Part shown: positions 1-63,851 of the stretch, piece by piece
Layout: every line of letters begins with the position of its first letter
Numbering within the stretch: position 1 is the first letter of the stretch
Assembly: GCA_038087875.1 (NCBI GenBank)
Contig: CM075991.1
Location: 11,720,001-11,784,000, forward strand
DNA from: Malacoraja senta
Lineage: Eukaryota
Reading direction: 5' to 3'
Length of the DNA: 64,000 nt
Program-made: the position numbers and the translations under genes
Notes under the pieces: generated by a model
Database searches by the model: none
The model's input: the letters and a program-made list of their open reading frames with translations, nothing else
Told to the model about the DNA's origin: nothing

Positions 1-6
1 CAGAGG

Positions 7-669
7 TTATGTAACGGCCACCAGGCACTGTAGACAGTTCAATGTCCTGTTGTCGAGAGCCGTGAGGTCTACCCCTCCACCAGGGGGGCGGAGGACAGCG
101 GGGTCAAAAATGCCGTGCTGCTGCTGCACTGTTTGCTGGTCTGCTCCACGCACGCATGGACGCAGCCCCCAGCGACGCATGTTGCCGTTGAACCGGCCGA
201 CCCCTGTACGCAGCCGGTTCGGGGCGACCCACTCTTTGTGGGGCAGGTCCGAGCCGGGTGGGGCTGTGGTGTTCGGTGCAACGGTGAATAGCGGAGGTCG
301 TGAAGTCTGTTCCCAGCTGGTTCTCCGTGCCCCTAGTGTGTTGAAACCGGAGCCACACAGGGTCGCTGCGTGACGGGAGAAGGGGCAACGAGATGACAGG
401 CGTTGAGGCCCCAGTTGCTGTGAGTCCTGGGCGAGATGGTGCAGAGGATGTTTGGCATCCGATGGGGCCTTGCACATCAGCCTGTGGGTGAAGTACTCTC
501 TGCCAAGCTTGGTGGCTGCACTATCTGTGAGCACCGGCAGACGATCCGTCGGAGTAGGACGTAGGCAGCTGGTGATCATCCGCATGGTGTCGTTGAGGAT
601 GGCGTCTAGCTTGCTAGTATGAGCGCTGCGGCACCACGTTGTCGACCTCCCCGTGGTGAGCCCTGTCAA
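7..669 (-). mobile_element. Non-LTR retrotransposon 3' fragment (RTE-X-like)
   Basis: Translation with LD..LN.TMRMIT.CLRPTP..LPVL, HPLH, NRLRTGVGRF..M.RWG motifs. Confidence 0.8.
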
Positions 670-1289
670 CTGACCTCAGTCAGGCGAACGACAACATTGT
701 TCCCGATGTTGGGGAAGTCCAGGACAAGGGGTCACAGTTTAAGGATAAGGGGGAAGTCTTTTCGGACCGAGATGAGAAAAAAAAATTCACACAGAGAGTG
801 GTAAATCTGTGGAATTCCCTGCCACAGAAAGTAGTTGAGGCCAGTTCATTGGCTATATTTAAGAGGGAGTTAGATGTGGCCCTTGTGGCTAAAAGGATCA
901 GGGGGTATGGAGAGAAGGCAGGTACAGGATACTGAGTTGGATGATCAGCCATGATCATATTGAATGGCGGTGCAGGCTTGAAGGGCCGAATGGCGTCCAC
1001 CTGCACCTAGTTTCTATGTTTCTAAACAGAGACAGCAGCAGAAATAACAAGGAACAACAGCTTGCAGCCTTAATGCAACCCCTCCTCTATAACCAACACA
1101 GGACCAGCTCAAGGCTGTGTGCTCAGTCCCCTGCTCTATGACCAGGACTGCACAGACCAACCAGACCATTCCAATGCCTTCTTTAAATTTCACCGACGGT
1201 ACCACCGTTGTTGGACAAATAATGGGTAATGACGAGTCAGCGTACAGGAGAGAGATTGATAATCTGAGGGAATGCTGCCAATAGGACAT

Positions 1290-1595
1290 TGTTACTCCTG
1301 TTCTTCCATGTTTGCTTGGATATCCTCCAGAATATGGTTACTGTATAGGAAGGTGGTTTGCTGTATGTGAATTGATTTCCTCGTCCAGAGAGTGGCTATC
1401 AGTCACCGTTGATCCTAGGTAGGTGAATTGGATGACAGTTTCCAGCTGACTAGTGTTTAGGATGATTTCAGAGGGGAGTGGAGTGCCTTGACCCATGACA
1501 ACAGTCATCTTAATACTGATTGCCAGTCGGTAATCATTGCAAGCATGAGACAGTCTGTCCATCAGCCCCTGAAGTCCTTCTTCTGTTGGGGTGAT
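1290..1595 (-). mobile_element. RTE-clade LINE reverse transcriptase fragment
   Basis: TEEGLQGLMDRLSHAC..L.ISI..TVVMGQ..LETV.QFTYLGSTVT..SLDEEINS. Confidence 0.75.
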
Positions 1596-3245
1596 GAGTG
1601 ACCAATATGATCCCGATGGTTCCTCTTCCTTCTCGGCAGCGCGCCCTTCCATGAGCAGTCTGACCTCCGGCACCTACCGAGGGCCTGTCTTTGACACTTG
1701 TCTCGGCGGTCACTTCGGCTGACGGATTCGTCCTTGTTCGTGGCCAATGCGGGCCAAGTCCGGTCTTGAGTGGCTTCAATTTTCTGTCATTCAAGTCCAC
1801 GGTGATCATCAATCTTGGCCATTTCCTGTCATCAGAAACCAACCTGGTAAATGGAGACAAGAATGGAGTCTTGAAGGGTCTCGATCCAAATGTCATCTGT
1901 CCATTTCCTCCGCAGATGCTGCCTGACCCGCTGAGTTCCTCCAGCAGTTTTCTGCTCCACCTTCGCTGACAGCCGAGCTCTAAAAACACATCTCCATCAC
2001 AGTCTTCCACTGAGGGCAGTTTACAGAGGATCAGCTCCATATTCCCAGTGACACCAGATCTTCCTCAGCAACACAGCAGGGTCAGGTGTGATGAAGCTTC
2101 TGCGTGCCAGCCCTGGTCCATGGCCGTCTCATCAGATATTGTCCTCTGGTCAATCACAGGAAACATGGCAGAGGTCGATGACCTCAGGAGGGGAAAGCCG
2201 ATGATCCACAAACTTGTCTTCATTCATGGGACAGTGGTGGAGAACGTTATGTTGCAAGTTCCTGGTTGTCCATATCTCTGAAGATCTGTCCTCTGTCCAG
2301 CACATCAATGCAATCACAACCAAAACTTATGACTACCTCTAAGCTTTGATAACATCCACAAAGGCGATGAACACGGGGTTTGCTGCTCTTGACATTTTCC
2401 TTATATTATCGCAGGGAGAAGATCATGTCCATTGTGGATCTACCTCCATGGAAACAGCATTGTGCCTCAGGTCAGCGAGTCTGTGCAGTCTTTGCAGGAT
2501 CACTCTGGCAAAGGCCTTTCCTGTAACACTCAGAAGTGAGATGTCCCTGTAGTTGGTGCACTCCCTTGTTCTTGTACATTGTGACAATGTTGGTGTTACG
2601 CATGTGTTACGCAGAAACTGCTCAGTCCGTCACAGGTGATGATCTCTTTACCATCAAAGGGATCTACAGGAGATGCTACCTGCAAAAGGCAGCTAATATC
2701 AAAGACCCACACCACCCTAACATTGTGAAAAGCCAACAGAAGCAGGGAAACTGACCTCCAAGTTTAAGAGCAGCTTCTTCCCAGCAATTACAAGCCTCTC
2801 GAACACTGCACAACATGAACCACAACAATGAGATATTATGGACTGTGTCTTTTGTGGGCCGACCGATATTTATTACACTAGAATTTAATTAATAGTTTCC
2901 TGGATTTGTATTTTATTAGTTATCTGTGTGTCATTGCACTACGCTCCCATTATTTTGTTCAGAAGCCCAAAAAACGTGACCAGGTTCAGGAACAGCTTCT
3001 TCCCAGCAACCATCAGGCTCTTGAACACTGCCCAACACAAACCACATCTATGAACTGTGAAGAACTATGGACTGAGTCTTTGGTTGCATTACAGACATTT
3101 TAACAGTAGTATCGTGAGTATAAATTTACTGAAATGTAAATTAATGCATTTTTGTGTTGTTGCAATTACAGGCTTGATAATCTACACAAGAAATACCCCC
3201 GCCCCCCCAACCCCTGCTACATGCCTACTGCTATCCAAAAGTGCT

Positions 3246-4720
3246 GCTATTTTATCTTTTATAATTGACTCCAGCACCTTCCCCACCACTGATGTCAGGC
3301 TAACTGGTCTATAATTCCGTTTTCTCTCTCCCGTCTTTCTTAAAAAGTGGGATAACATTAGCTACCCTCCAATCCACAAAAACTGATCCTGAATCTATAG
3401 AACATTGGAAAATTATCACCAATGCGTCCACAATTTCTAGAGCCACTTCCTTGAGTACCCTGGGATGCAGACCATCAGGCCCTGGGGATTTATCAGCCTT
3501 CAGTCCCATCAGTCTATCCAACACCAATTCCTGCCTAATGTGGATTTCCTTCAGTTCCTCAGTCACCCCAGATCCTCTGGCCACTAGTACATCAGGAAGA
3601 TTGTTTGTGCCTTCCTTAGTGAAGACGGATCCAAAGTACCTGTTCAACTCATCTACCATTTCCTTGTTCCCCATAATAAATTCACCCTTTTCAGTCTTCA
3701 AGGGTCCAACTTTTTTCTCTTCACATACCTTAAGCTTTTACTATCCTCCTTTATATTCTTGGCTAGCTTACCTTCGTACCTCATCTTTTCTCCCCGTATT
3801 GCCTTTTTTAGTTATCTTCTGTTACTCTTTAAATGTTACCTCTGGCTTCCCGCTCATCTTTGCTACGTTGTACTTCTCTTTTATTTTTCTACTGTCCCTG
3901 ACTTCCCTACTGTCCCAGCCTCGGTCGCCCCTTACTCCCTTTGGAATCTTTCTACCTATTTGGAATGAACTGCTCCTGCACCTTCTGTATTATTCCCAGA
4001 AATACCTGCCATTGTTGTTCCACTGTCATCCCTGCTAGGGTATCTTTCCAGTCAACTTTGGGTAGTCTCCAATACAAGCTGCTCTAAGAATACATCACGG
4101 AGGAACTCCACAAACTCCCTTTCTTGGGGTCCAGTACCAACCTGATTTTCCCAATCTACCTGCATGTTGAAATCTCCCATAACAACCGTAGTATTACCTT
4201 TACGACATGCCAATTTTAACTCTTAATTCAATTTGCACCCTATATCCAGGCTACTATTTGGGGGCCTGTAGATGTCCTATTAGGGATTTTTACCCTTACA
4301 ATTACTAAGGGTAATTCCCTTCTATCCATACTGACTCTACATCTCCTGATTCTTTGTCACCCCTCGCAAGGGACTGAATTTCATTCCTCACCAACAGAGC
4401 TACCCCACCTCCTCTGCCCACCTGACTGCCTTTTTGACAGGACGTATACCCTTGAATATTCAGTTCCCAGCCCTGGTCCTCCTTGCAGCCATGTCTCTGT
4501 AGTTCCCACAACATCATACTTGCCAATTTCTAACTGAGCTTCAAGCTCGTCCACTTTATTTCTTATATTTCGCGCATTAATATAGAACACTTTAACTTCA
4601 GTATTCACCTCCCCTCTCACACTGGTCACTATTGGGCCTGGCCTTACTCTCTTATCCCTTCTCGAACTTTCCTTCCCATTAATTCGGGAGTCTTTTGTAA
4701 CTTTTCCTGTACTTGCTTTC
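3246..4720 (-). mobile_element. CR1-clade LINE ORF2 fragments (endonuclease and RT N-terminus), decayed
   Basis: YINARNIRNKVDEL..YDVVGTTETWL; GRGGGVALLVR; KSPGPDGLHPRVLKE..DWRVANVIPLFKK. Confidence 0.92.
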
Positions 4721-5094
4721 CCTTTAACTCTATCTTTATACTCCCAATTCACTCCACTACTCATGGGGAAACTGTCCGAAGTAGCGCCATCAAATTGCAC
4801 TGTAGATGCATGTTCTTGTGGAAGGACTGAGTGAGGTTTAGAAGACGTGGTATACATCCACCCGTCTCCAATACCTGCTAGAGCCACGTCTGCGGACAGA
4901 AATGAAAGCTTTTGCAAGAAGGCCAATCTTTCTCCAAGTTTGAAGCAAACTTCCACATGTGGAGCAGCTGTTGAGGAACAACTTCCTGTGGCTCCAGAGG
5001 AATTCAGTGGGTCAGGCAACATATGTGGAAGGAATGGACAGATTATATTTTGGATCACGGCTCTTCAAGACTCCATTCTAGTCTCCATTCACCA

Positions 5095-5376
5095 GGTCAG
5101 TTAACGACGACAGCAGATAGCAGAGGTTGATGTTCACCATGGACTGGAATAACACATGGTTGAAGATCCCAAAGGCCAATCTTGCTCCACGTTCTGCGTG
5201 ACCGTCCACATCTGGCGCCGGAGAAACTGTTGAGGAACAACTTGGTGGGATTTCTTGTGGCCCTGGTTCTCCTCCAGATGGTGTGAAGGGGAAAACATGA
5301 AACATCTGACGACTGATGCGGTCGCCAGCTGTTTACGAGGAACTTTCCCTCCGAACGATGAGGGACCGCTGCTCAT
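5095..5376 (-). pseudogene. Highly diverged histone H3-like relic
   Basis: GGKVPRKQLAT (5320-5352), then HLEENQGHKKS, TKLFLN, LRRQMWTVTQNVEQDWPLGSSTM and VNINLC, collinear with H3 motifs across frameshifts. Confidence 0.5.
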
Positions 5377-7449
5377 TGAGTGTCTGGTGGATGCTGAGGG
5401 AATGAGGACACTGAGGGAATGAGGCACGCTGAGGCGATGAGGGGCAGCGAGGAACTGCGGGACGGACGATGCTGAGGGATTTAGGGACATTGTGGAAATG
5501 AGGAGCCAACTCCCGAGGGTGACCCCTCACACAAGGGAAGGTCCACTCTCCCAGGGGGCAACATGAGTTCAGGGAAAAAGGGAGATGTTGGTACTACTGC
5601 GTATAACACTAGCAATATTGGTTTATCCCCAAAGAACCGCAGATGCCGGTTTACAAAACAAGACACAAAGTACTGGAGTAACACAACCGGTCAATCTACA
5701 AAAAAGGTGCAGTGGGAAGGAGTTGTTGCTCCGTCTGGTGGTGCAGATTTCTGTACCTTTCGCCTCACAGCAGCAGCGAGAAGAAGGAATGACCAGTCTG
5801 TTTGTTAAATTTGTTATGAAGGCCAACATGCCATTCGCTTTCTTCACTGCCTGCTGTACCTGCATGCTTACTTTCAGTGACTGATGAACAAGGACACATC
5901 ACCCAGATCTTGTTGTACTTCCCCTTTTCTTAATTTGACACCATTCAGATAATAATCTGCCTTCCTGTTCTTGCCACCAAAGTGGATAACCTCACATTTA
6001 TCCACAGTAAACTGCATCTGCCCACTCACCCAACATGTCCAAGTCACCCTGCATCCTCATAGCATTGAGGATGCAGGGTGACTTGGACATTCCAGTGATA
6101 TGGGCCCTTCGGCTCATTGAGACTACACTGACCATTAATCTACCTCTGTTGAGGTAGTCGATGGGCGAATCAAGGGCTGTGGGGCACTGGCATAGAGGAG
6201 GAGGTGAGGTTTGGGCAGATCAGCCATGATCTTGGTGAAGGACAGATACAGTATAGGTTTGAGGGGCCGAATGGTCTTCTCCCATTTATAGTGTCGCTAC
6301 CAAAACCCTACTGCCACCCATTGGCCTGCTGTGGGACTGCTGGCCTTCACATTTGTAGACTGGAGGTACATGAACTGCAGATGCTGGCTTTACAAAAAGA
6401 CACAAAGTGCTGGCGGAACTCAGTGGGTCAGGCAGCATCTCTGGAGGAAAGGAGTAGGTGATGTTTCAGGTTGGAACCTTTCTTCAGACTTTCTGACCCG
6501 AAACATCACCTATCCATGTTCTTCAGAGATACTGCCTGGCATGCTGAGTTACTCCTGCACTCTGTGTCTATGGTTTAACTTTGCATCTGCAGTTCCTTCA
6601 TACACACCATGTCTGGTGATTGCTAGGTGACTCTGGGCATGGTGGCAGAGGTGGAGACAAGAAGTGAGGTGCAGGAGGAGGCTGAGGGGTGATCTTATAG
6701 AGGTGTATATATTCATGAGAAGAATAAATATCTAGAATAGGGGAAATCAAGAACTTGGGGTCGTGGGTTTAAGGTGAGAGGGGGAAAAGATTTACTAAGA
6801 ACTTGAGAGGCAACTGTTTTCACACAGAGGGCGGTGGGTGAATAGATCGAACTGCCAGAGGAGGTGGATTAAACAATTGAGAAAGGACTCGATGGATCCT
6901 GTGGGGGTGGTTTCCCCCATGGACTGGCTAAGGCATTTTGCAAAAGATGCCTCAGACAGGCAGTATCTCTGGAGAGAAGGAATGACTGATAGACACAAAA
7001 AGCTGGAGTGACTCAGTGGAATCTGAAGAAGGGTCTCAACCCGAAACATCACTATTCCTTCTCTCCAGAGATGCTGATCGTCCCGCTGTTACTCCAGCAT
7101 TTTGTGTCTATCTGCAGTTATGTCAACAGACAATAGACAACAGGTGCAGGAGTCGGCCATTCGGCCCTTCCAGCTAGCACTGCCATTCGATGTGATCATG
7201 GCTGATCATCACCAATCAGTAACCTGTTCCTGCCTTCTCCCCATATCCCCTGACTCCGCTATTTTTAAGAGCCCTATCTAGCTCTCTCTTGAAAGTATCC
7301 AGAGAACCTGCCTCCACCGCCCTCTGAGGCAGAGAATTCCACAGACCTACACTTATGATCTCCTGCTGAGTCCCTCTTAGTTCTATCACATGTTCATGTC
7401 ATAGGAGCAGAATTTGGCCCGTCGAGTCCACTCCATCATTCCACTAGGG

Positions 7450-8882: not shown

Positions 8883-9689
8883 AACCAGAAACAAACACAG
8901 TCAGTCAATGAGAAAAAATATGTACAAATCCAGAATCAACAAATTTGCCCCCTGGGTAGGTGAAATGTACCCCAGGTTGGGAACCCTTGCACTAGGGGGA
9001 TAGATTGGGCAAGTGCAGTCTTTAGGAGGTAGACAAAAATGCTGTAGGAACAAAGCGGGTGCAGCAGCATCTATGGAGCGAAGGAAATAGGCAACGTTTC
9101 GGGCCAAAACCCTTAAGGGAATAGGCAACCCTTAAGGAAATAACCCTTAAGGAAATAGGCAACGTTTCGGGCCGAAACCCTTAAGGATTTTGGCCCGAAA
9201 CGTTGCCTATTTCCTTCGCTCCATAGATGCTGCTGCACCGCACTGTATTTGATCCCCCCCCGCCGGCCTTAGAATAAAGGGGAGGTCATTTAAGACTGAG
9301 GTGAGAAAAAACTTTTTCACCCAGTGAGTTGTGAATTTCTGGAATTCCCTGCCACAGAGGGCAGTGGAGGCCAAATCACTAGATGGATTTAAGAGAGAGT
9401 TAGATAGAGCTCTAGTGGAGTCAGGGGATATGGGGAGAAGGCAGGCATGGGTTATTGATTGGGGACGATCAGCCATGATCACAATGACTCGAAGGGCCGA
9501 ATGGCCTCCTCCTGCACCTATCTTCTATGTTTCTATGTTTCTATGTTTCTATGTTTCCATTTCCTTCGCTCCATAGATGCTGCTGCACCCACTGAGTTTC
9601 TCCAGCATTTTTGTCCACCTTCCATTTTCCAGCATCTGCAGTTCCTTCTTCAACACTGCAGTGTTTAGGACATGGTTCACCGTCCCAGG

Positions 9690-10195
9690 TGAGCTGCAGC
9701 TGCGGGCAGGGGCCGCACGGTGGGGGTGTCGGCGGAGGGTGGCGTTCCCTCTCCCCCTCCGACTGGCGGGCGGCGCGTCCCGTCCCGCTTGGCGCAGCGC
9801 ACGCTCCTCGGTCTTGGCGGAGTCCTCCAGGGCGGCGGGACGCGGCGACCGCTTGGTGACGGCAGGTAGGCCGCGGCCGCGGTGCTGGCGGCGGAAAACG
9901 CCCGGAATCCACCCGCTAAACCCGGGGTGGAGAGAGGGAGGAGGGAGGGAGCGGGAGGGGGGAAGAGTCTTTGTCGTGAGGGGGGGAGAGGGAGGCCTGG
10001 ATCCGGGCCCGCGCTGTGTTTGATTCTCCCCGCCGGCCAGCGAGGCCGCGCTCCCCGGGAGCCGCGCGGGAAAGGCCGCAGGCCTGGGCCTAGTCGTCGC
10101 GCTTCACGCCACGGGCCTCGAGTCCGGGCCAGGCCGCTCCCCGGCACCATCGCGCCCGCTCCGCCATCCCGCCAACGCGGGGCGGCCGGTTTCTC
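9690..10195 (+). promoter_or_regulatory. CpG island, probable CCAR2 promoter and non-coding first exon
   Basis: Very GC- and CpG-dense unique stretch 2.4 kb upstream of the first coding exon; candidate donor CAG|gtaggc at 9866 (another, CAG|gtgagc, at 9689). Confidence 0.75.
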
Positions 10196-10479
10196 CCTCA
10201 TTTTGGATCTTTTATATTTCCCCCCATTGTTACAAACCCCGCTCTCACCTCGCCTCAAACCACCAACAATATCCACCCCCCCCCCCTCTCTATCTCTTCA
10301 TTTTATTCCCTCTCTCTTCCTTTTATTCCCTCTCTCATCCTTTTATCCCCCCCCCTCTCTTCCTTTTATCCCCCCTCTCCCACCATCTCTTTCTTTCCAC
10401 CAATATATCGTATTTTATTCAATCTTTGCCAGGTTTTCCTTATTTTTTTTACCTTCTTTTCCGCATTCTCAGTTTTACC

Positions 10480-21600: not shown

Positions 21601-24600
21601 GGACATGGGTCGCAGAGGTGACAGAAGGTAAATACACTCGCGTTCCTGCAAGTTTGAGAAACGTTTTTTTATCGGCAGGTTCAAAAGTTCATTAGTGATA
21701 GGACAGAAGTAGGCCATTTGGCCTATCAAGTCTACTCCGCCATTTAATCATGGCCAATCTATCTTTCCGTCTTAACCCCATTCTCCTGCCTTCTCCCCAT
21801 AACCCCTGGCACCCGTACTAATCATTTGGCGGTGGTTGTTTTTATTTGGGGTGGTTCCTCTTCAAGATAGGAGACTAAATTCATCCAGCTGTATTAGCTT
21901 TGGGGGTCACACACTTGGAAGTCCCAGCTCAAGTGGACTCAGTGCTGGCGGTGATCTCTCCTGCAGTGTGGGGCGAGGCAGTTGCGAGCCCCGTCTGATA
22001 CCAGGGTCAGGGCATCACCTAATGCTGTGACCAGTCTGGCTCTGAAAGTGAGCTCTCATTGTGCGTTGAGTATCAGTGTGAGTTCACACTCCATGTTGGA
22101 AGCCTGACTCTCGGGTCTGAGTGTGAGCTTTCAGCACGTCAGCAGGTTTCCATGTTTCTTCTTTCTCGGTATTGAGGAAAATGTCTTCCAGCTTGGGCAT
22201 GGCGTACTCTGGTTGTATTGGAGGCATTCCGCCTGATGTTGCTCGTGATCAATGTTGCCAATTATCTCTCGATGTTTACCCCTTGTTTATTCCCACACAG
22301 GGACAATTACAAGCGGATGGGCCAGGGCTCCCACAAAAGGTATCAGGATATGGCATCCGGGGAAGGGCCCGCCAAAAAGGCACGACATTACATTCCCTCC
22401 TACAATGTGCAGTACTCCCGCTTCTGCCTGGACAGGTACCAGCCCTTTCAATGCTTACATGCATGTTTTATAACCTCTGTCTTTCTGTATGAACTGTGCA
22501 GAACCAGCAGCCTGGTCGCTTCAGGCTCTACAGCTCGAGAGTGGTGGCTAAGATTGGCACCATGTCACTCATAAGTATTTGATGGTGCCAGAGCACTGGG
22601 CTGGCTGCTGTTCGCCTGAGTTGATGAGTGGTGTTGGCTGCCTGCTTGATTACTGAGGCATCAACGGACTGCCGTGCCATTTCTACTGCCCTTGTTTGCA
22701 AAGCTTAGTGACTTGAAATCCCAAATGTGCAATGGGACAGACTGTTCACCACCTTGTTGCATGGTAGCGAGACACATTGTCTGTGAACCGTTGTTGGGGC
22801 AAGTTGGGCTATGAATTCCTGTCGGGGCCACGGGTTTGGGTGTGATTGCTTGGATGCTCGCTGGGTGATGGAACGGATCGGAGTGAGTCACAGAGAAGTA
22901 GAATCTGTCTGTGATTCCCATAGCGGGGGGGGGGGGGGGGCAGGTGAGACTAGAACACTCACACACGTACAGTGGGGGGGGGTAGGGGAGGGGACACGCA
23001 CACAGGTAGGTCTGTGACTCCCCACGTGAGGTTAATCCAGGTTGATCAATCCTGTTTGTGGTCCCTCGCTATCCTGCTCTGGAGATTTGGAAAGCAGGCA
23101 AACCTGTACTGAGCTTTGTGTAAGAAAGAACTGCAGATGCTGAAAAAATCGAAGGTAGACACAAAATGCTGGAGTAATTCAGTGGGTGAGGCAGCATCTC
23201 TGGAGAGAAGGAATGTGTGACGTTTCGGGTCGAGACCCATTCCTTCTCTCCAGAGATGCTGCCTCACCCGCTGAGTTACTCGAGCATTTTGTGCCTACCT
23301 GTACTGAGCCTGTCGGCTTAATGACTTGCACCTATACATAGCAATGTTACAAAATTTTGAGCTTTTAAAAATAAAGTCTGCAATTTATCCCATCAGATAA
23401 AGCATAAAAAGAAGTTTAATTTGACACCTAATTCACTTTCATATCTTCAGTATTAAAGAAGTTATGGCCATTTTCATACTCGGAAATTAGCATCTTGTTC
23501 CCTATCGCTTTTCCATTGACTTAACACAAAAGCTGTGATCGAGGACAGTTAAAAGCCCATAACTTTCTTAATAATTAAGATAACTGAAAGAAATTTTCAG
23601 TTATTATAGATTGAAGCATTCTGAAACAAATATGAAACAATCTTACTTAGATGACATGAAAGTAAAGCATATAATTAGCTAGTTACCTAATTGTAGCTAA
23701 TTACAAAATTCAATTACTAGATCTAAACATCTATCAATTTCTTAAGAATAGATTAACATTTTTAAATAGCCTAAGTGTCCAAATAACATTCACACAATAA
23801 TTCACAATATAACATAATTTTAAAATCTCATTTTCATGAATTTACAGGCCAAATGGAAGGAATTGAATGTTTAATACCTGTAAATTAATGGACATTTAAA
23901 TCTTGTGAGTGAGGATTTCTGGAACGCGATCTTTTGGAACGTTCATTTGCGGTGAATTTAACCCCGTATTGGCATGAAAAATACTGCCGTTAGTTCGGGG
24001 AATAAAATCACCGTGTCGCGTGAAAAAATGTGAATTAAAGGCTTCTTAAGAAGCACTTTTATACATTTAAAGAAACCACTTTCGTTTACCTGTCCCGTGT
24101 GTGAAATCCGTCCCCGTTATCGGTGTTGACGCTTCAGGAGCTGCTTTTAAAATTACTCCAGCGCTGACATTGACGATTTAATAAAAAATAAAAAATTCAC
24201 AAAACGCCACTAGGAACGATTTTTCAGCAAAAGGTTGTACTCCAATGAAATATAATTCAGGACAAGGGAGGAGAAACCGTGTTTTAACCCCGCCCCCCCT
24301 TAAAGGCGCCAAAATCGCGCACACAGCCAGTGGCAGAATTACAGCGCGACTGAAGGTAAGTTTTGTAACATACCTACTATACATATTAAGTGCCATGGAA
24401 AGGACCAGTTGGCTGAGCAACACTGTCACCGGTCAATGGAGAATATCCTCAGTGACTCGCAGTATATTGACAGAATGTGCGTTGGAGATCCGCGGTGATG
24501 GATTGTCTGTGGCGTGTCCTCTGTACGTCCACGGTGATGGAATGTGAGTGTCAAATTAAGTCAAGAGTCTATTCGTCTGAAGAAGGGTCTCGACCCAAAA

Positions 24601-27600
24601 CATCACCCATTCCTTCTCTCCAGAGACACTGTCCCAGCGTTGTGTGTCTACGGAGTAAACCAGCATCTGCAATGCCTTCCTACACAATAATATTTTTTTA
24701 TTATCGTATGCCCTGAAACAGAACAATGAAATTCTTACTTGCAGCATCGCAACAGATTTATGATCATTGTCCTATAACAACAAGTAAAGTTTGGTATATA
24801 TATATATATTTTTTAAACAATAATAGTGCAAAAATAAAAACAATGCCTCCAAGTCTATGTAGTTTGCAGCTTATTTGGAGGTAGTAGTTAATAGCCTGAT
24901 GGTTGTAGGTGACAAATTGCCTGTTAACAGACTTAATATTAATGTGAACCCATTCCTTCTCGCCAGGGATGCTGCCTGTCCCGCTGAGTTACTCCAGCAT
25001 TTTGTGTCTACCTACCGCCCATTAACAGCCGGTCCTCTGCTTTTCCCTTTAGCGCTGCTTGTGATACCATTGAAGTGCAGCGACGCTACCCGTGCCTCAA
25101 CATCCCAGACACATTTTTCGATGGCAGACTGGGCTGGGTGAACACATTCCCATTGACCGAACCTTTTCAGTTAGGCCAGAAGTCTGTTTTCCACGTGATG
25201 GAGAAAGGGCTGGAACCAACTGAGGAACAAGATGATCAAATGGATCCTCCTGATGCCGACTCCACCTACAGTGCCAAGGTGAGCGGCAATGGGTGTTGTT
25301 TGGGATCAAACTGGTTTTGGAAGCAGTGCTATTTTTAAGGAACCTATCACTCTAATACTAACTCCACTGAATCAATTGTTTCGATTTCATTAAGTCGGTA
25401 CTAACCCATTCAACAGATTGAAGACTGAACATTTCAGATCATAGTGCGAGCCTAGATTTGGAAGTAAACTAATTTTCTTTCACATTCGATAGTAGTAGAC
25501 AGGGAAATATCTAAGGGTATTATTTAGATGGACTTCCATATGACATATGTAAAGTTCTGCAAAAGGAATTGTTAGTTAAAGTTGACATAACTGAAGATAA
25601 ACTTGATATGGTTAAAGATTTGCTTGAACAGCAGTGGTTAGAAATAGGCAGGTACTCAGTGGCAAAGTGTGACTGGAGGTGTCCAGAAAGTATGTTGGGC
25701 CATGGTTATCAGCTACAACATATAAATCACTGAGCTAATGGGACAGAAAGCCACATGTTCATCTACCGATAACCGTAGTTATGTCACGCTGAATGGTCAA
25801 AGTGACCAGGTGACATTTCCATTGTTCAGTCATTTTGTCATGTGATATAGAAACATAGAAAATAGGTGCAGGAGTTGGCCATTCGGCCCTTCAAGCCAGC
25901 ACCGCCATTCAATATGATCATGGTTGATCATCCAAAATCAGTATCTCGTTCCGGCTTTTCCCCCATATCCCTTGATTCCCTTATCCCTAAGAGCTAAATC
26001 TAACTCTCTCTTGAAAATATCCAGTGAATTGGCCTCCACTGCCTTCTGTGGCAGACAATTCCATGATTCACAACTCTCTGGGTGAAATGCTACTCTCCAG
26101 GGATTCCCAGCAATGAATGCAAGTTTAACTATTCTGGTTAAATACCCTGGCCTTTGCCCTCGTATTTCAGTAGCAGAATAATGAATGTAATTTTCCCATC
26201 CATGTGCATGGTTCCCAAGTCGAGAAAACTTGGAAAGATTGCATTTAGGGCAACTGTGGCAATCTCACCATTCTGTTCCATGGAGTTGCACATGCAGTCC
26301 CATCTCTCTGCTCCCACACATTGAGAGGTGCATTTACCCCCAGCAAATGAGCTTCAAAATTTACAGAATGGCCTTGCATAAAACCACATCTTTTCGGGGA
26401 GGACTTGAGATTGGGATCGTTACAGGTTACAGGAAGTTTTTTTGTTTTTTTTTCGTTTATTGTCACATGTACCGAGGTACAGTGAAAAGCTTTTGTTGCG
26501 TGCTAACTAGCCAGCGGAAAGACAATACATGATTATAATCGAGCCATTCGTACCAAGCCGAGAGTTAAGAGTGTGTAACTGTGCTGAAAGTTCTTCCTGG
26601 CTGCAGCTTAACTGGCCTGTAAACTCAAGACACATAGATAACACAGAACAGACACAAATTCAATAAACATGTTAGCACAGTTTGAAAGGTGAATGATCGA
26701 GTGATGTGATTCCAGTGGATTGTGTCTTATGGAGATGTACAGTGGCTTGCAAAAGTTTTCATACCCCTTGAACTTTTCCACATTTTGTCACGTTACAACC
26801 ACAAACGTAAATGTATTTTATTGGGATTTTATGTGATAGACCAACACAAAGTGGTGCATATTTGTGAAGTGGAAGGAAAATGATACATGGTTTTCAAATT
26901 TTTTTACAGATAAAAAACTGAAAAGTGTCGCGTGCAAAAGTATTCAGCCCCCCTGAGTCAATACTTTGTAGAACCAGCTTTGCACATCTAGAGACTGAAA
27001 TTTTTGCCCATTCTTCTTTGCAAAATAGCTCAAGCTCAGTCAAATTGGATGGAGAGCGTCTGTGAACAGCAATTTTCAAGTCTTGCCAGAGATTCTCAAT
27101 TGGATTTAGGTCTGGACTTTGACTGGGCCATTCTAACACATGAATGTGCTTTGATCTAAACCATTCCATTGTAGCTCTGGCTGTATGTTTAGGGCCGTTG
27201 TCCTGCTGGAAGGTGAACCTCCGCCCCAGTCTCAAGTCTTTTGCAGACTCTTAACAGGTTTTCTTCCAAGATTGCCCTGTATTTGGTTCCATCCATCTTC
27301 CCATCAACTCTGACCAGCTTCCCTGTCCCTGCTGAAGAAAAGCATCCCCACAGCATGATGCTGCCACCACCATGTTTCACAGTGGGGATGGTGTGTTCAG
27401 GGTGATGTGCAGTGTTAGGTTTCCGCCACACATAGCGTTTTGCATTTAGGCCAATTTTGGTCTCATCTGACCAGAGCACCTTCCTCCACATGTTTGCTGT
27501 GTCCCCCACATGGCTTGTGGCAAACTGCAAACGGGACTTCTTTTGGCTTTTTTTCAACAGTGGCTTTCTTCTTGCCACTCTTCCATAAAGGCCCGATTTG

Positions 27601-30600
27601 TGGAGTGCACGACTAATAGTTGTCCTGTGGACAGATTCTCCCACCTGAGCTGTGGATCTCTGCAGCTCCTCCAGAGTTACCATGGGCCTCTTGGCTGCTT
27701 CTCTGATCAATGCTCTCCTTGCCCGGCCTGTCAGTTTAGGTGGACGGCCATGTCTTGGTAGGTTTGCAGTTGTGCCATACTCTTTCCATTTTCGGATGAT
27801 GGATTGAACAGTGCTCCGTGAGATGTTCAAAGCTTGGGATATTTGTTTATAACCTAACCCTGCTTTAAACTTCTCCACAACTTTATCCCTGACCTGTCTG
27901 GTGTGTTCCTTGGGCTTCATGATGCTGTTTGTTCACTAATGTTCTCTAACAAACCTCTGAGGCCTTCACAGAACAGCTGTATTTATACTGAGATTAGATT
28001 ACACACAAGTGGACTCTATTTACTAATTAGGTGACTTCTGAAGGCAATTGGTTGCACTGAATTTTATTTAGGGGTATCAGAGTAAAGGGGGCTGAATTCT
28101 TTTGCACGCGACACTTTTCAGTTTTTTATTTGTAAAACAAATTGAAACCCATGTATCATTTTCCTTCCACTTCACAATTATGCGCCACTTTGTGTTGGTC
28201 TATCACATAAAATCCCAATAAAATACATTTACGTTTGTGGTTGTAACGTGACAAAATGTGGAAAAGTTCAAGGGGTATGAATACTTTTGCAAGCCACTGT
28301 AGTTGCTTGACTGCAGCTCTTTCACTGACATGTCCGCTCTACGCTTCAGGTGATACTGCTGTCCTGTCCAGACCTCTTGGACCTGTACCGCCAGACCTGC
28401 ACAATGGCTGAAGCACCCAAAGAACGGGCCGAGCCGGCTCAGCATGCCACAAAGCTGATTAAGGTAAGTTCCCGTGACAGGTCTTTGTAAAGCAGCTTCC
28501 CATTATTTCCCGCGATGGTAAACGCCTCTTTGCACTTGATTGATTCCTTCATTGAGCCCGTGGTGACGCTGCAGTAAGCAATGAGAATCAAACCACAGAC
28601 AACTCCAGCCGCCTTTCTCAGCTCATTCCTTCCACTTGTGCCTAGCCGCCAACAGTTACCCTTCTCCATCACGATCGGGCGCAGAGCTACCTCCACCCGC
28701 TTCTCCCCTCTCTCCACTTCGCTCCCCGGCCCCCGCGCTCCTGTTCTCTCTTTCCCCCTTTCCTACCTCCCACACTACTAGAAACCCCTCCCACTCCGAA
28801 CCGCCCTCGCTCATCTCCTCTGGTCTCTCGTGTTCTTTTGTACAGTTCTTGGTTGGGATGAAGGGCCAGGAGGAAGCGATGGCGATTGGGGGGAGTTGGT
28901 CTCCTTCTCTCGATGGTCCAGGCCCAGATAAGGACCCCAGGGTGCTGATCAAGACGGCCATTCGCACCACCAAGTTCCTGACTGGCATTGATTTGAGCGT
29001 CTGCACCCAATGGTGAGTCCCCCAATGCAGAGCGGGGTGGATGGGCGTGGATGCATGTGGACCCGATGGGTGCATAAACGGAAGCTTGCTGGAGAAAGAT
29101 GGTGGTTAGGGAGGGGAACAGTGCACCGTGTAAAACAGCAGGGGGGAGAGAGGTTAATCTTATTTCCTGGCAGACTTCATTGTTAGTTGGCGTGTTCTGG
29201 CACAGGCTCTGGAAACTTGGACCAGGGAAGGGGTTCTCTGCAGGAATAGTGGCACGGGTTGAGGAGATGCTCCAGTGAATGAGAAGGCATCTGTGGAGGC
29301 ACAGTGAGCCTGGATGTCCTTTGTCCCCTGCCTGGCCGGCAGCTGCAGTCTGGATCTGACGAGGGACAGCGCTGCCCAGGAGTGACGTGATGTTCAGAGC
29401 TACAGAGAGAGTCCGGCTCCAATATCTAGCTTGGTTACTTGGTGAATTGTTCCAATGTGCCCGCGTTGCACTGTACTTCTGGCTGCTGTAGTGTTGGTGC
29501 ACGTTGAGCTTCTGGGGCACCAAGAAATATTACTTTTAAGGGGCCTGTCCCACTTACGCGGTTTTTTTCGGCGACTGCCGACATGCCAGCAGTCGGCGAA
29601 AAAAATCACGTAAGTGGGACAGGCTCCTTAAGTGTCCCAGAACCCAGGAGCTTCCGTCACAGCCCACCGTGCAGGATCTCTCCGTGTACGGTGAAATACT
29701 ATTGCTAACCTGTTTGTTTCTGTTGGTTGAATGGATGCACTAATTCAGCCATCTGCCTGAGCGTTGTGCCAGAAAGGGGGAATGAGTTTCGGGCAGGAGT
29801 ACAGAATGCTGCCATTGTTTGCCTTGTAGAGTTAGCCTGACGGGTGCTTCTGTGGGGTGGGGTGGGATTTATACTTGGCCCTATCACGCTGGGGGTGATT
29901 AATGAAGGTGAGGATCCTGGGCCGAGGGGGCTTCTTTCTTCCCCCGTTGTCAACTCATGACTGAGTATCTATGGGAGGAAAAAAAGACCAAGTGCTGGAG
30001 TAACTCACCAGGTTGCACCATCTATGGATCACAGACATGAATAGGCGACGTTTTGGGTTGAGCCTCTTTCTCAGGCTGACGGTTCCCGACCCAAAATGCC
30101 ACCTGTTCATGTTCTCCAGAGATGCTGTCTGACACGCTGAGTTACTGCAGCACTCTGTGTGTCTTCTTTTGGATCCATCCTTGTATCCATCTACGGGAGG
30201 TTGACTTGACCTGGACTTGAGGAGACCGGTGCTTGGAATGGGTGAAGGATGCCTCCTGCTAGTTCTCGCCTCCTTTTGCAAAGTACCTTTTCCAATGGGG
30301 AATCTGGGATTGCGACTGTGCGAGGGTCAGAATGTGTTGGGGGGGGGGGGGGTATTTGAGGAGTGTGGGTGGCGCGTATCGTTGGACTGTAAGCTTTGGC
30401 GTTGGTTTTGCGATGCTGTGTGCTATTGTTTCCAGTAACCCTCTTCCCTTGTGACAGGTTTCGCTTTGCTGAGATCCGCTACCTTCATCCTGGAGAGCTC
30501 CGCGAGGGGCGGCTGCTCCCAGCCCGTGTGGAGACTGTGGTTGTATTTCTGCCGGATGTTTGGCATTGCCTCCCTACTCGCTTGGAGTGGGACGCACTGT

Positions 30601-30759: not shown

Positions 30760-33700
30760 CATATACAAACCTTCACACATACCTTCACTCACACACACAG
30801 ATACAAACTCTTTACCCCTCCACTGCCATAGCAAGAGTGACCGATAACTTTCAGTTCAAGTGAGCATTTGCCAAGATAGAATAACCACGAGACTATAAAA
30901 TGCTGTAGCAGGGAACTGCTGCAGAGCTGCTGGCACTCTTTATGAATGTGAACGGGACTCCACTAATGCACTGCCACGTCACAATTCCTTAAACAGAGAC
31001 GGGATGGGGGTAGTAGCAAAAGAGTCGGTGACTAGAATTGGTCATCACATAGTCTGGGGATTGGCCCACTGGTTGTTCAGGGTCAGTGTAGTTGTGGAGC
31101 TGGGTGTGGGAGGCACCAGCTCGTTCCCCAAATCACCCAGTTAACAACAACAAGCATCGGGCAGCTTGAGATCTGCGGTGAAGCCGGCTTCCAAGGCAGG
31201 GCAATATCTCCTGGACCATGTGTAGCAGCTTCTGGACCATCTCTAGCAGCTTCTGGACCATGTGTAGCAGCTTCTGGACCATGTGTAGCAGCTTCTGGAC
31301 CATGTGTAACAGCTTCTGGACCATGTCTAGCAGCTTCTTCACCATGTGTAGCAGCTTCTGGACCATGTGTAGCAGCTTCTGGACCATGTGTAGCAGCTTC
31401 TGGACCATGTGTAGCAGCTTCTGGACCATGTGTAGCAGCTTCTTCACCATGTGTAGCAGCTTCTGGACCATGTGTAGCAGCTTCTGGACCATGTGTAGCA
31501 GCTTCTGGACCATGTGTAGCAGCTTCTGGACCATGTGTAGCAGCTTCTTCACCATGTGTAGCAGCTTCTTCACCATGTGTAGCAGCTTCTGGACCATGTG
31601 TAGCAGCTTCTTCACCATGTGTAGCAGCTTCTGGACCATGTGTAGCAGCTTCTGGACCATGTGTAGCAGCTTCTTCACCATGTGTAGCAGCTTCTGGACC
31701 ATGTGTAGCAGCTTCTTCACCATGTGTAGCAGCTTCTGGACCATGTGTAGCAGCTTCTTCACCATGTGTAGCAGCTTCTGGACCATGTGTAGCAGCTTCT
31801 GGACCATGTGTAGCAGCTTCTTCACCATGTGTAGCAGCTTCTGGACCATGTGTAGCAGCTTCTGGACCATGTGTAGCAGCTTCTTCACCATGTGTAGCAG
31901 CTTCTGGACCATGTGTAGCAGCTTCTGGACCATGTGTAGCAGCTTCCTCACCATGTGTAGCAGCTTCTTCACCATGTGTAGCAGCTTCTTCACCATGTGT
32001 AGCAGCTTCTTCACCATGTGTAGCAGTGCCACAGGCTGAAGCCGTTTCCACACAGATACTCTGACTGTGGTTCCCCACAGCAAGCTTCAGCATAGATTGG
32101 CCTGAGCTTCCTCACTGGAGAATGGGGTGTGCGTCTGTATATCGACGCGGGTGATAACGACACAGCGTGTGCTCCGAGTGGGGAAATGAGATGTGCCTTT
32201 GGCCCCCCTGTCTGGTGACGAGACGGGTTAGTCTGTGGTCTCCCCACGGTGAAGGACATGTTCGCCGGCGATTCCCTTGCGGGTAATGGAACAAATCAGC
32301 CTGTGCTCCCTCACTGGGTGGTGGGTCTGTGGTCTCCTCACTGGGTGATAGGATGTGTGTGGGTGGTGATCTTTGTTAGGAGGTGAAATCTACCGTTGTC
32401 ATGGGCGCTACCGCTGCTGTGTATTAGAATGAAAAAGTATCCTGTGATACTTTTACCATGGAGTAATAAGTCACCCCTGAGGTAGTTGTGGTATTAGCTA
32501 ATAGTATGTTTATTCAATGCTTAATCTCTCTTGAACAAAACACAAAATGGCGGAAGAACTCGGCAGGTCAGGCTGTGAATAGATGGGGGTGACGTTTGCG
32601 GTTAGGTCCCTTCTGGAGATGATGTTTGGCATTGTGCCTGGGGTAACAATGGTTAGGTAAGTGGGGAACTGAAGCTGGGAAACAAAATCTCTGTTTAAAG
32701 AAATGTGACGGGGCCACACAGACCAAGACCACACTGGTGACGCATCAACACTTACACTCTGATTCTCTGACATCCTTTCACCCCAACTGAACACACTGTT
32801 TATGATGCATTGTTCCAGACAGTTTGCCGTTCCTTCCCCTGACGGGCTCACATGAACTCCCACGTGTTGCGTATTCTGGTTTCCGTCCAATACTCGTCTC
32901 ATTCCCATTCCCATATTTGACGAACCTATACCACAATGACAGCTCCCTCTAGGCGATTCCTGCCCCTCACAGTGTGTCCTTTCAGGCCCGAGGCTTTAAT
33001 GCTGGAGCAGCTATAGAATTAAAGTGCAGCTAGGCCTGTCCTTTAAAGCAGTCACAGCAAGAGCAGGCCTCCATCTTGTGGGTTGGTGATCTGTTCACTT
33101 CCTGGCATGGGGACCCTTGGATGGTCTAACTTCTGCTGGCTGAATCCATGCGTGTTTATCACCGGGTCATGAAAAGCAGGCCCTATGGCTGTTTTCGGGC
33201 TCATTGATATACTTGTCGAGCTAAGACGGGCTGGTGTCATAGAGATATCCAGAACTGCCAGTTCCGAACACTGGACATAACCTGCAAAATGCTCTACCCC
33301 AAGACTACTATAACCCAACATTATACAACGATAAAGCTGCACACATCCTACCCTCGCACAGCTCTGAACCTCAGTGTTATATAGGAACAAGCCAATGTGA
33401 CCAGTACTTTGTCCCAGTGTCGTACAGTAATAGACCTGTTCCCACCATCACCTTGCACCAATGTTAAACTGTATAAGTAACACAGGCACTATTGCCAAGA
33501 ATTGTCAGTGGGCAGACCTTTATCCATCTGTACTGTACCCAATGTGACATCAGGTACCCCCATGTAGGGCTGTACAGCCATTACTGTATCTCAGTGTAAG
33601 CTTCTACCCATTAACAATCTGCCCAAGGAATTAGTCCAGAGTTAGCCATCATAATATGCCCCACATTAAATCTCCTGTTTATCCTGGGTTCAGGCTCAGT

Positions 33701-62810: not shown

Positions 62811-63851
62811 TAGGTATGTTACAATACTTGCCTTCAGCGGCGCTGTAATTCTGTCACTGGCCGTGTGTGCGATTTTGGCGCCTTTAAGGGGGGGCGGGGT
62901 TAAAGCGCGGGTTTCTCCTCCCTTGTCCTGAATTATACTTTGTTGGAGTACCAGCTTCTCTGGAAGAAGCGTTCCGAGTGCCGTTTTGCGTAGTTTGTTT
63001 TAAAAATCTCCCAACAAGTTCAGCGTTGGAATCATTTTTAAATCATCTTCTGAAGCGTCAACGCCAACAACGGGGACGGATTTCACACAAGGGAAAGGTA
63101 AACGAAAGTGCTTTATGTTAATGTATAAACGTTCTCCTTAAGTGACCTTTAATTCACATTTTTACATGCGACACGGTGATTTTATTCCCCGAATTAACGG
63201 CAGTATTTTTCATGCCAATACGGGGTTAAATTCACCGCAAATGAACGTTCCAAAAGATCGCGTTCCAGAAATCCTCACTCGCAAGATGAATTAAATCCCC
63301 ATTAATTTACAGGTATTAAACATTCAATTCCTTCCATTTGGCCTGTAAATTCATGAAAATTAGATTTAAAAATTATGTTATATTGTGAATTATTGTGTGA
63401 ATGTTATTTGGACACTTAGGCTATTTAAAAATGTTAATCTATTCTTAAGAAATTGATAGATGTTTAGATCTAGTAATTGAATTTTGTAATTAGCTACAAT
63501 TAGGTAACTAACTAATTATATGCTTTGCTTTCATGTCTTCGAAGTAAGATTGTTTCATATTTGTTTCAGAATGTTTCAATCTATAATAACTGAAAATTTC
63601 TTTCGGTTATCATAATTTTTAAGAAAGTTATGGGCTTTTAACTGTCCTCGATCACAGCTTTTGTGTTAAGTCAATGGAAAAGCAATAGGGAACTAGATGC
63701 TAATTTCTGAGTATGATAATGGCCATAGCTTTTTTAATACTGACGATATGAAAGTGAATTAGGTGTCAAATTAAACTTCTTTTTATGCTTTATCTGATGG
63801 GATAAATTGCAGACTTTATTTTTAAAATCTCAAACATTTGTAACATTGCTA
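62811..63851. mobile_element. Non-autonomous TIR element (TAG...CTA), copy 2
   Basis: Reverse-complement homolog of 23339-24376; flanked by a 35-bp direct repeat (62776-62810 and 63852-63886). Confidence 0.9.

What the first reader, a model, noticed from the sequence alone, without database searches (positions are those of the whole stretch)
5095..5400. Cryptic, heavily diverged histone H3-like sequence
Seen on the - strand: GGKVPRKQLAT (5320-5352), 10/11 identical to the H3 tail GGKAPRKQLAT that spans K14 and K18. It is followed in order by HLEENQGHKKS (H3 ALREIRRYQKS), TKLFLN after a 1-nt shift (TELLIR), LRRQMWTVTQNVEQDWPLGSSTM ([23 protein letters not shown]) and VNINLC after another shift (EDTNLC). 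Many aligned codons differ from typical H3 codons by one base. The tail motif is far better preserved than the fold. It lies in an open 118-codon frame (5134-5490) behind a Ser/Pro-rich leader instead of ARTKQTARKS. No histone cluster is nearby. Inference: an old H3 pseudogene, a fast-evolving lineage-specific H3 variant, or an H3-tail mimic exapted in another protein.
Basis: partly seen in the sequence, partly recalled or inferred. Interest (0 to 1): 0.7.

Follow-up and report, generated by a model that had tools for sequence, protein, structure and literature searches.

The report
Dead histone H3 genes, multiplied subtelomerically
This is a broken copy of an ordinary histone H3 gene inside a block of several such remnants that is repeated at about two dozen sites, mostly near chromosome ends; it likely makes no protein, and its apparent reading frame comes from a deletion found only in this copy.

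Summary
Window 5355-5176 (-) descends from the genome's own canonical H3 genes: the tail motif matches at 31 of 33 nt, and the fold part alone beats 2000 of 2000 shuffles. At protein level the fold part is no better than shuffles (56 of 200 reach it). The segment is not unique: 67 related segments lay in the loci I fetched, only 35 keep the motif and 8 of those keep this peptide; pN/pS is about 1. It is one of several differently decayed H3 remnants in a roughly 15-25 kb block repeated at 26 or more chromosomal sites, 21 within 3 Mb of a contig end (8.8 expected). The block has ragged ends, no terminal inverted repeats and no transposase. The Ser/Pro leader and ATG come from a roughly 2 kb deletion seen only in this copy (1 of 40 scored matches). 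So: an unprocessed H3 pseudogene spread by likely subtelomeric segmental duplication, not an H3 variant or tail mimic. Unexplained: the 33-nt motif is better preserved than the fold (p about 0.004, chosen after the fact). Sister copies form 430-bp inverted pairs that could yield anti-H3 small RNA (untested).

The parts
5320..5355 (-). Remnant of H3 codons G12-T22 (tail motif), 31 of 33 nt identical to the closest live H3 genes
   Evidence: live H3 mRNA reads cross-map exactly here
5278..5319 (-). Degraded tail-to-fold linker, 42 nt where H3 has 75 (net loss of 33 nt, frame kept)
5176..5278 (-). Remnant of H3 alpha-N to alpha-1/L1 coding DNA, 68 of 98 aligned nt identical, with a +1 and a -4 indel
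5114..5175 (-). Weak remnant of the alpha-2 coding region with large deletions (low confidence)
   Evidence: alignment; not tested separately
4997..5075 (-). Piece of a high-copy short repeat that ends the H3-derived segment; resembles a decayed Penelope-type hammerhead tail (label recalled; no Rfam match)
   Evidence: family D19 (4999-5050)
4870..4995 (-). Older partial internal duplicate of the fold-coding part
   Evidence: 74% to 5243-5172; 3 of 1000 shuffles
5355..5357 (.). Deletion junction private to this copy; about 1.8 kb missing relative to L006 (a CpG-rich remnant, the inverted arm and the loop)
5357..6098 (.). Neighbouring part of the repeated block: 17-18-nt tandem repeat (5394-5442) and LINE fragments; supplies the ATG at 5490 and the Ser/Pro leader; no similarity to H3
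   Evidence: 1163 of 2000 shuffles reach its score
5134..5490 (-). 118-codon open frame made by the junction; likely accidental
1967..2112 (-). A second, differently decayed H3 remnant of the same block
   Evidence: E 2e-9; 0 of 1000 shuffles
1..6098 (.). Part of the repeated block that lies in the window; it continues about 3.1 kb beyond the window's left edge, with two more H3 remnants and a decayed stem-loop-like sequence

Best explanation
This is a decayed, intronless copy of a canonical histone H3 gene, one of several H3 remnants in a 15-25 kb block present at 26 or more chromosomal sites, and it is likely non-coding DNA spread passively by subtelomeric segmental duplication. Shown: H3 descent, canonical parent class, multi-copy block, neutral change among copies, the private junction. 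Inferred history: (1) a stretch of a replication-dependent H3 array was displaced and decayed by about 25-30%, with deletions, LINE and short-repeat insertions and an inversion that put two copies of this segment head to head; (2) the whole block was then copied between chromosome ends by ectopic recombination or break repair, breakpoints often falling in LINE tails, leaving copies 84-97% alike; (3) in this copy a deletion of about 2 kb fused a tandem-repeat region to the second arm and by chance produced an ATG-led frame. The better-kept 33-nt motif is most likely a short conversion or template-switch patch from a live H3 gene, or module shuffling between remnants, fixed before step 2 (inferred).
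For: DNA match beyond the motif, 0 of 2000 shuffles. A profile of the 35 copies hits 20 of 20 H3 entries and none of 23 H2A, H2B or H4 entries at E<0.01. Fold part scores 169-196 against 18 canonical genes, 94 and 94 against two H3.3-type exons, 60 against a CENP-A-like exon. Stem-loop-region remnants beside sister copies, E 1e-5 to 9e-3. No third-position bias. pN/pS 1.18 in the motif (15 N, 5 S) and 1.04 over 58 codons (91 N, 31 S, 6 stop alleles); 11 of 35 copies have that frame broken. 32 of 67 segments lack the motif. Only 4 of 35 have an in-frame ATG within 130 nt upstream, and the other three break early. Junction in 1 of 40 scored matches. No protein relative of residues 45-118 among 64-207-aa proteins. 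21 of 26 loci within 3 Mb of a contig end versus 8.8 expected, none of 100,000 simulations. Ragged ends and no TIR signal. Only reverse-transcriptase, endonuclease and one LINE-associated family among 134 ORFs of 125 aa or more. One sister remnant joins this segment's tail block to another remnant's body.
Against: The motif is better preserved than the fold (31/33 versus 68/98, p 0.004; majority 32/33 versus 67/89, p 0.008; window picked after the fact, about 8 such windows), which uniform decay does not predict. The frame from tail to alpha-1 stays open through a 33-nt loss and compensating +1/-4 indels, and 24 of 35 copies keep 58 open codons. Several copies share nearly the same left end, as a mobile element would. 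The sequence upstream of intact copies has CCAAT- and TATA-like words but is no closer to live H3 promoters than shuffles (115 of 200), so a promoter remnant is not shown. Copy counts are lower bounds, and contig ends were taken as chromosome ends.
Confidence: 0.83

Rival explanations
1. The block is a large non-autonomous mobile element (rolling-circle or retroelement-carried) that captured a decayed H3 array, rather than a segmental duplication.
For: Six fetched copies begin within about 20 nt of one another at the left end, and the terminal 260 bp occurs at about 13 places. H3-derived segments end in a Penelope-like tail and occur as partial tandems and inverted pairs, a Penelope habit (recalled).
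Against: No TIR signal in 4 of 4 end pairs; right ends differ by up to 500 nt; the shared left end lies in a LINE-tail-type repeat; no transposase or helicase family in 134 ORFs; no target-site duplication seen by eye in the two copies with both ends in hand; the H3-derived segment turned up mostly at places that also hold other block parts, four contigs not checked.
Confidence: 0.1
2. The family works at the RNA level: read-through of the head-to-head arms would form a long hairpin or antisense RNA whose 33-nt near-perfect patch targets replication-dependent H3 mRNA. The window's copy would be a crippled member, as it lost one arm.
For: L006 folds into a roughly 430-bp hairpin, -807 kcal/mol, no shuffle control. 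A CpG-rich piece with CCAAT, GC-box and TATA-like words and a conserved donor-like site lies just before the antisense arm. The motif is conserved as nucleotides. Three reads from 2 starts are antisense to H3 in one polyA run of a relative (strand inferred from the H3 mRNA reads in the same lay).
Against: Arms of one locus are no more alike (0.86-0.90, 4 pairs) than arms of different loci (0.87-0.91, 12 pairs), and arms group by type in the tree. The motif varies among copies like its neighbours (24 alleles in 33 columns versus 226 in 260; p 0.35). At most 6 family reads among 7.3 million records.
Confidence: 0.05
3. The 118-codon frame encodes an H3-tail mimic or a divergent H3 variant that binds readers or writers of K14/K18.
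For: The frame is open, has an ATG with A at -3, and carries 10 of 11 H3 residues.
Against: Junction private to one copy; neutral change; no protein-level fold similarity; no homologue; no read on the leader 5370-5640 in the one RNA run, which is from another species; DNA runs of three organisms show intact-type ends at 5355 and no listed bridging piece (344 pieces not shown).
Confidence: 0.02

Closest known systems
Unprocessed pseudogenes and displaced 'orphon' copies of replication-dependent histone genes (birth-and-death evolution)
   Same: Intronless, derived from canonical H3, disabled by indels, neutral. PMC13525598 (passages) notes histone pseudogenes in clusters and birth-and-death evolution; the orphon concept is recalled.
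   Different: Here several remnants sit together far from any live cluster and were amplified as one block after they had decayed. This genome also has ordinary, barely decayed H3 pseudogenes (L048, L050).
Subtelomeric segmental duplications (human subtelomeric duplicons, PMC2323237; abstract read)
   Same: Multi-kb blocks at chromosome ends and some internal sites, variable divergence and variable block order.
   Different: Copies are 84-97% alike and up to several Mb from the ends; ends lie in LINE-type tails; telomere-repeat tracts at boundaries were not looked for; the cargo is H3 debris.
Histone-derived piRNAs (Aedes aegypti, PMC5416884; abstract and headings read) and pseudogene-derived endo-siRNAs of mouse oocytes (recalled)
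   Same: Inverted or antisense gene-derived sequence could supply small RNAs against the parent mRNA.
   Different: No small RNA shown here, no sign of selection on pairing, and the window's own copy lacks the second arm.
Histone H3 variants (H3.3, CENP-A, testis H3s) and histone-tail mimics (recalled)
   Same: Contains the K14-K18 tail stretch.
   Different: No intact fold, no conserved start, no purifying selection, closer to canonical H3 DNA than to H3.3 or CENP-A exons.

Membership tests
Pseudogene of replication-dependent histone H3 | Significant collinear DNA similarity to H3 beyond one motif | tested here: met
   (0 of 2000)
Pseudogene of replication-dependent histone H3 | Closer to canonical H3 than to H3.3 or CENP-A, no intron at the H3.3 position | tested here: met
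   (169-196 versus 94, 94, 60); tail and fold 42 nt apart
Pseudogene of replication-dependent histone H3 | Disabling lesions and neutral evolution | tested here: met
Pseudogene of replication-dependent histone H3 | 3' stem-loop or promoter remnants showing a DNA-level copy | tested here: inconclusive
   stem-loop-region hits beside sister copies, none by Rfam; promoter similarity not significant
Pseudogene of replication-dependent histone H3 | Not translated | not testable with these tools
   no ribosome or peptide data; one RNA run of a relative shows no leader reads
Subtelomeric segmental duplication | Multi-kb collinear blocks at many loci, about 90% alike | tested here: met
   (84-97%)
Subtelomeric segmental duplication | Enrichment near chromosome ends | tested here: met
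   (21 of 26 within 3 Mb, 13 of 26 within 1 Mb; expected 8.8 and 3.0); contig ends stand in for telomeres
Subtelomeric segmental duplication | Telomere-repeat tracts at block boundaries | not tested
   not searched
Cut-and-paste DNA transposon or MITE | Terminal inverted repeats | tested here: not met
   (4 of 4 end pairs at shuffle level)
Cut-and-paste DNA transposon or MITE | Target-site duplication and fixed termini | tested here: inconclusive
   left end nearly shared by six copies, right end ragged, no TSD by eye
Functional H3 variant | Intact histone fold under purifying selection | tested here: not met
Histone-tail mimic | Motif conserved as peptide inside a conserved ORF | tested here: not met
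Hairpin or antisense small-RNA locus | Long inverted repeat in one transcribable unit | tested here: met
   sister copies only; absent from the window's copy
Hairpin or antisense small-RNA locus | Small RNAs produced from the arms | not testable with these tools
   no small-RNA run was listed

The most novel reading that the evidence does not exclude
The repeated block is a chromosome-end family of H3-derived hairpin loci: a CpG-rich promoter drives RNA through head-to-head H3 remnants, and the one near-perfect 33-nt patch yields small RNAs against replication-dependent H3 mRNA in the germline of a cartilaginous fish.
Probability: 0.05. Interest if true: 0.7.

Novelty: new member of a known kind. 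Interest (0 to 1): 0.24.

Why it matters
As read here it is ordinary: a histone pseudogene in a segmental duplication. It has modest value as a dated marker of exchange between chromosome ends in rays or skates (taxon inferred from repeat types), where I found no description, and as a mapping trap, since live H3 mRNA reads land on the motif (7 of 13 reads). It would matter more if the inverted pairs made anti-H3 small RNAs, which would be a vertebrate case of pseudogene-based control of histone mRNA.

Tried and rejected
Chance match: rejected. H3.3 or CENP-A origin: rejected on fold-exon scores; H3.3 tail exons were not in the fetched stretches. Other histones as contributors: only H3 coding hits, H1 genes were not recovered by my script so H1 is untested. 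'Decayed H3 promoter' upstream of intact copies: I first thought so and dropped it (919 of 1000 and 115 of 200 shuffles reach the score). PDB search gave only non-significant H3-tail hits, best E 0.16. Rfam found no histone stem-loop or hammerhead in 3 loci. No RNA holder listed for the stretch; depth over 5174-5340 in the one raw polyA run of a relative was 2.8 and 1.6 reads with 6% of the run read. Only near-length proteins were searched; longer and shorter ones were not. No structure prediction was run, since no conserved ORF exists. One search's motif index was off by one codon; one search is the corrected run. Earlier findings of this scan: nothing returned. Literature: one search gave 0 papers; searches listed nothing on this family (listings only; subscription papers and supplements not seen).

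Full report
Observation. The minus strand at 5352-5320 reads GGKVPRKQLAT inside an ATG-started frame of 118 codons. Rather than use recalled sequence, I took H3 genes from the window's own genome (21 full-length CDSs, 18 distinct ones used in the tests from then on). The motif differs from the closest of them at 2 of 33 nt (2-5 across 18 genes) and 10 of 11 third positions are identical. Best chance match in 200 shuffled windows was 7 of 11 residues. With the motif excluded, 5060-5315 still aligns to H3 DNA at z 7.8, 0 of 2000 shuffles (best of 18 genes); H2B and H4 controls are flat and H2A is mildly raised at 8 of 500. A frameshift-aware protein alignment of the same part is not significant (56 of 200), and Pfam and PDB give nothing significant. 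The similarity is therefore inherited DNA, not a preserved protein.

Parent class. The fold part scores 169-196 against 18 canonical genes, 94 against each of two H3.3-type exons and 60 against a CENP-A-like exon. A profile of the copies finds 20 of 20 H3 entries and none of the 23 other histone entries. Remnants of the CDS end and stem-loop region lie beside sister copies. A promoter remnant is not shown.

It is a repeat. The segment has 59 matches from 40 scored of 866 candidates, and 45 from 40 of 161 with the high-copy tail left off. In the loci I fetched there were 67 segments; 35 carry the motif, 8 of them as GGKVPRKQLAT and none as the true H3 peptide. The motif varies like its neighbours (p 0.35), with pN/pS 1.18; over 58 codons pN/pS is 1.04 with 6 stop alleles, and 24 of 35 copies keep that frame open. 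These are counts of distinct alleles against a majority sequence, not tree-based rates. Differences from H3 show no third-position bias. The tree has three groups; the window's copy falls with the 'second arm' copies (100/97) on an ordinary branch.

The larger block. Similarity between loci runs far beyond the segment. The block holds several differently decayed H3 remnants; in this copy they lie at 5361-5176, 4995-4870, 2112-1967 and, left of the window, at about -1277 to -1451 and -2635 to -2812. A CpG-rich piece in sister copies is also weakly H3-derived (2 of 1000 shuffles). From I merged matches into 26 loci on 14 large contigs, leaving out unplaced contigs and one contig of unknown length; a few of the 26 hold only part of the block at 75-79%. 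Of these, 21 lie within 3 Mb and 13 within 1 Mb of a contig end, against 8.8 and 3.0 expected. Ends are ragged on the right and nearly shared by six copies on the left; in the longest copies both fall in LINE-tail-type repeats, and there is no TIR signal. Of 134 ORFs of at least 125 codons from ten 10-kb stretches and the window, 14 hit Pfam: reverse transcriptase (11), endonuclease (2) and one family that I recall as LINE-associated. DNA runs of three organisms hold many variants with intact-type ends, so the family likely predates their split; one of these may be the source sample.

The ORF. In sister copies the motif is preceded by other sequence, usually with a stop within 13 codons and no ATG. 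In the window a deletion (about 1.8 kb against L006) joins a 17-18-nt tandem-repeat region to the second arm at 5356. Only the window spans this junction among 40 scored of 67 candidates. The leader has no H3 similarity, and residues 45-118 have no relative among near-length proteins. In one polyA run from a relative, 6% read, 13 reads lay on 5070-5640: 7 are live H3 mRNA caught by the motif, 3 are antisense reads of intact-type copies, 3 others, none on the leader. That is weak evidence, from another species and an unknown tissue. An assembly error at the junction was not excluded.

Mechanism. Shown: descent from canonical H3, the multi-copy block, end enrichment, neutral change, the private junction. 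Inferred: displacement and decay of part of an H3 array, an inversion that predates dispersal (arms group by type), copying between chromosome ends by recombination in shared repeats, and a late deletion here.

What remains odd. The motif is better kept than the fold (p 0.004-0.008 before allowing for about 8 windows). Peptide selection does not fit, since silent sites are kept and the fixed change is a replacement. A short conversion patch or module shuffling fits; one sister remnant joins this tail block to a different remnant's body. Selection on RNA pairing is the bold alternative: sister copies form a 430-bp hairpin, but the arms are not homogenised and the motif is not constrained now.

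Comparison. Histone pseudogenes and birth-and-death evolution are known (PMC13525598, passages), as are subtelomeric duplicons (PMC2323237, abstract) and histone-derived piRNAs (PMC5416884, abstract and headings). Minimal hammerheads in Penelope-like elements are described in PMC6155905 (passages); my label for the short tail repeat rests on recalled motifs and has no Rfam support. Searches listed no account of this family. Verdict: real, explained, a new member of a known kind; interest 0.24.

Noticed in passing
L006:880-1250 (+) and relatives L143-L146: CpG-rich piece (64% GC, CpG o/e 0.91) with two CCAAT words, a GC box, a TATA-like word, an AATAAA and a donor-like site in all eight full-length copies displayed; weakly H3-derived; its ATG is not conserved. 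Possibly a live non-coding promoter. Deleted from the window's copy.
   Followed up: partly
L006:1501-2706: Head-to-head inverted pair of the H3-derived segment, about 430-bp arms, present in many copies of the block.
   Followed up: partly
L015, L019, L020 and other 'GGKLP' copies: One subfamily keeps 109 or more open codons downstream of the motif but has a stop just upstream and no leading ATG.
   Followed up: partly
window 9600-10300 and 17557-39402 (+): GC-rich island followed by exons with S1-like, SAP and LAIKA domains, a CCAR1/CCAR2-like gene (name inferred). The block lies about 3.5 kb upstream of the island.
   Followed up: partly
window 52569-52895 (+): Death-domain exon, E 1.5e-21; likely a TNF-receptor-family gene (inferred).
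   Followed up: no
window 26738-28301: Tc1-type transposon with 222-nt inverted ends and a broken transposase frame.
   Followed up: no
window 31211-32026: 21-nt tandem repeat, 39 copies, open in four reading frames.
   Followed up: no
window 6035-6090: Near-perfect 56-nt palindrome close to the right end of the block, shared by sister copies; only sub-threshold microRNA-shaped Rfam hits.
   Followed up: partly
G000:C1:221.84-221.95 Mb (L118, L142, L143, L156): An internal copy of an otherwise end-biased block in the middle of the 396-Mb contig; could mark an old chromosome fusion (speculation).
   Followed up: no
L149, L150: Exons of a CENP-A-like gene on an unplaced contig.
   Followed up: partly
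window 23339-24172 and 63015-63851: Two adjacent inverted repeats of 564 and 273 nt, 96% and 90% complementary, 39 kb apart.
   Followed up: no
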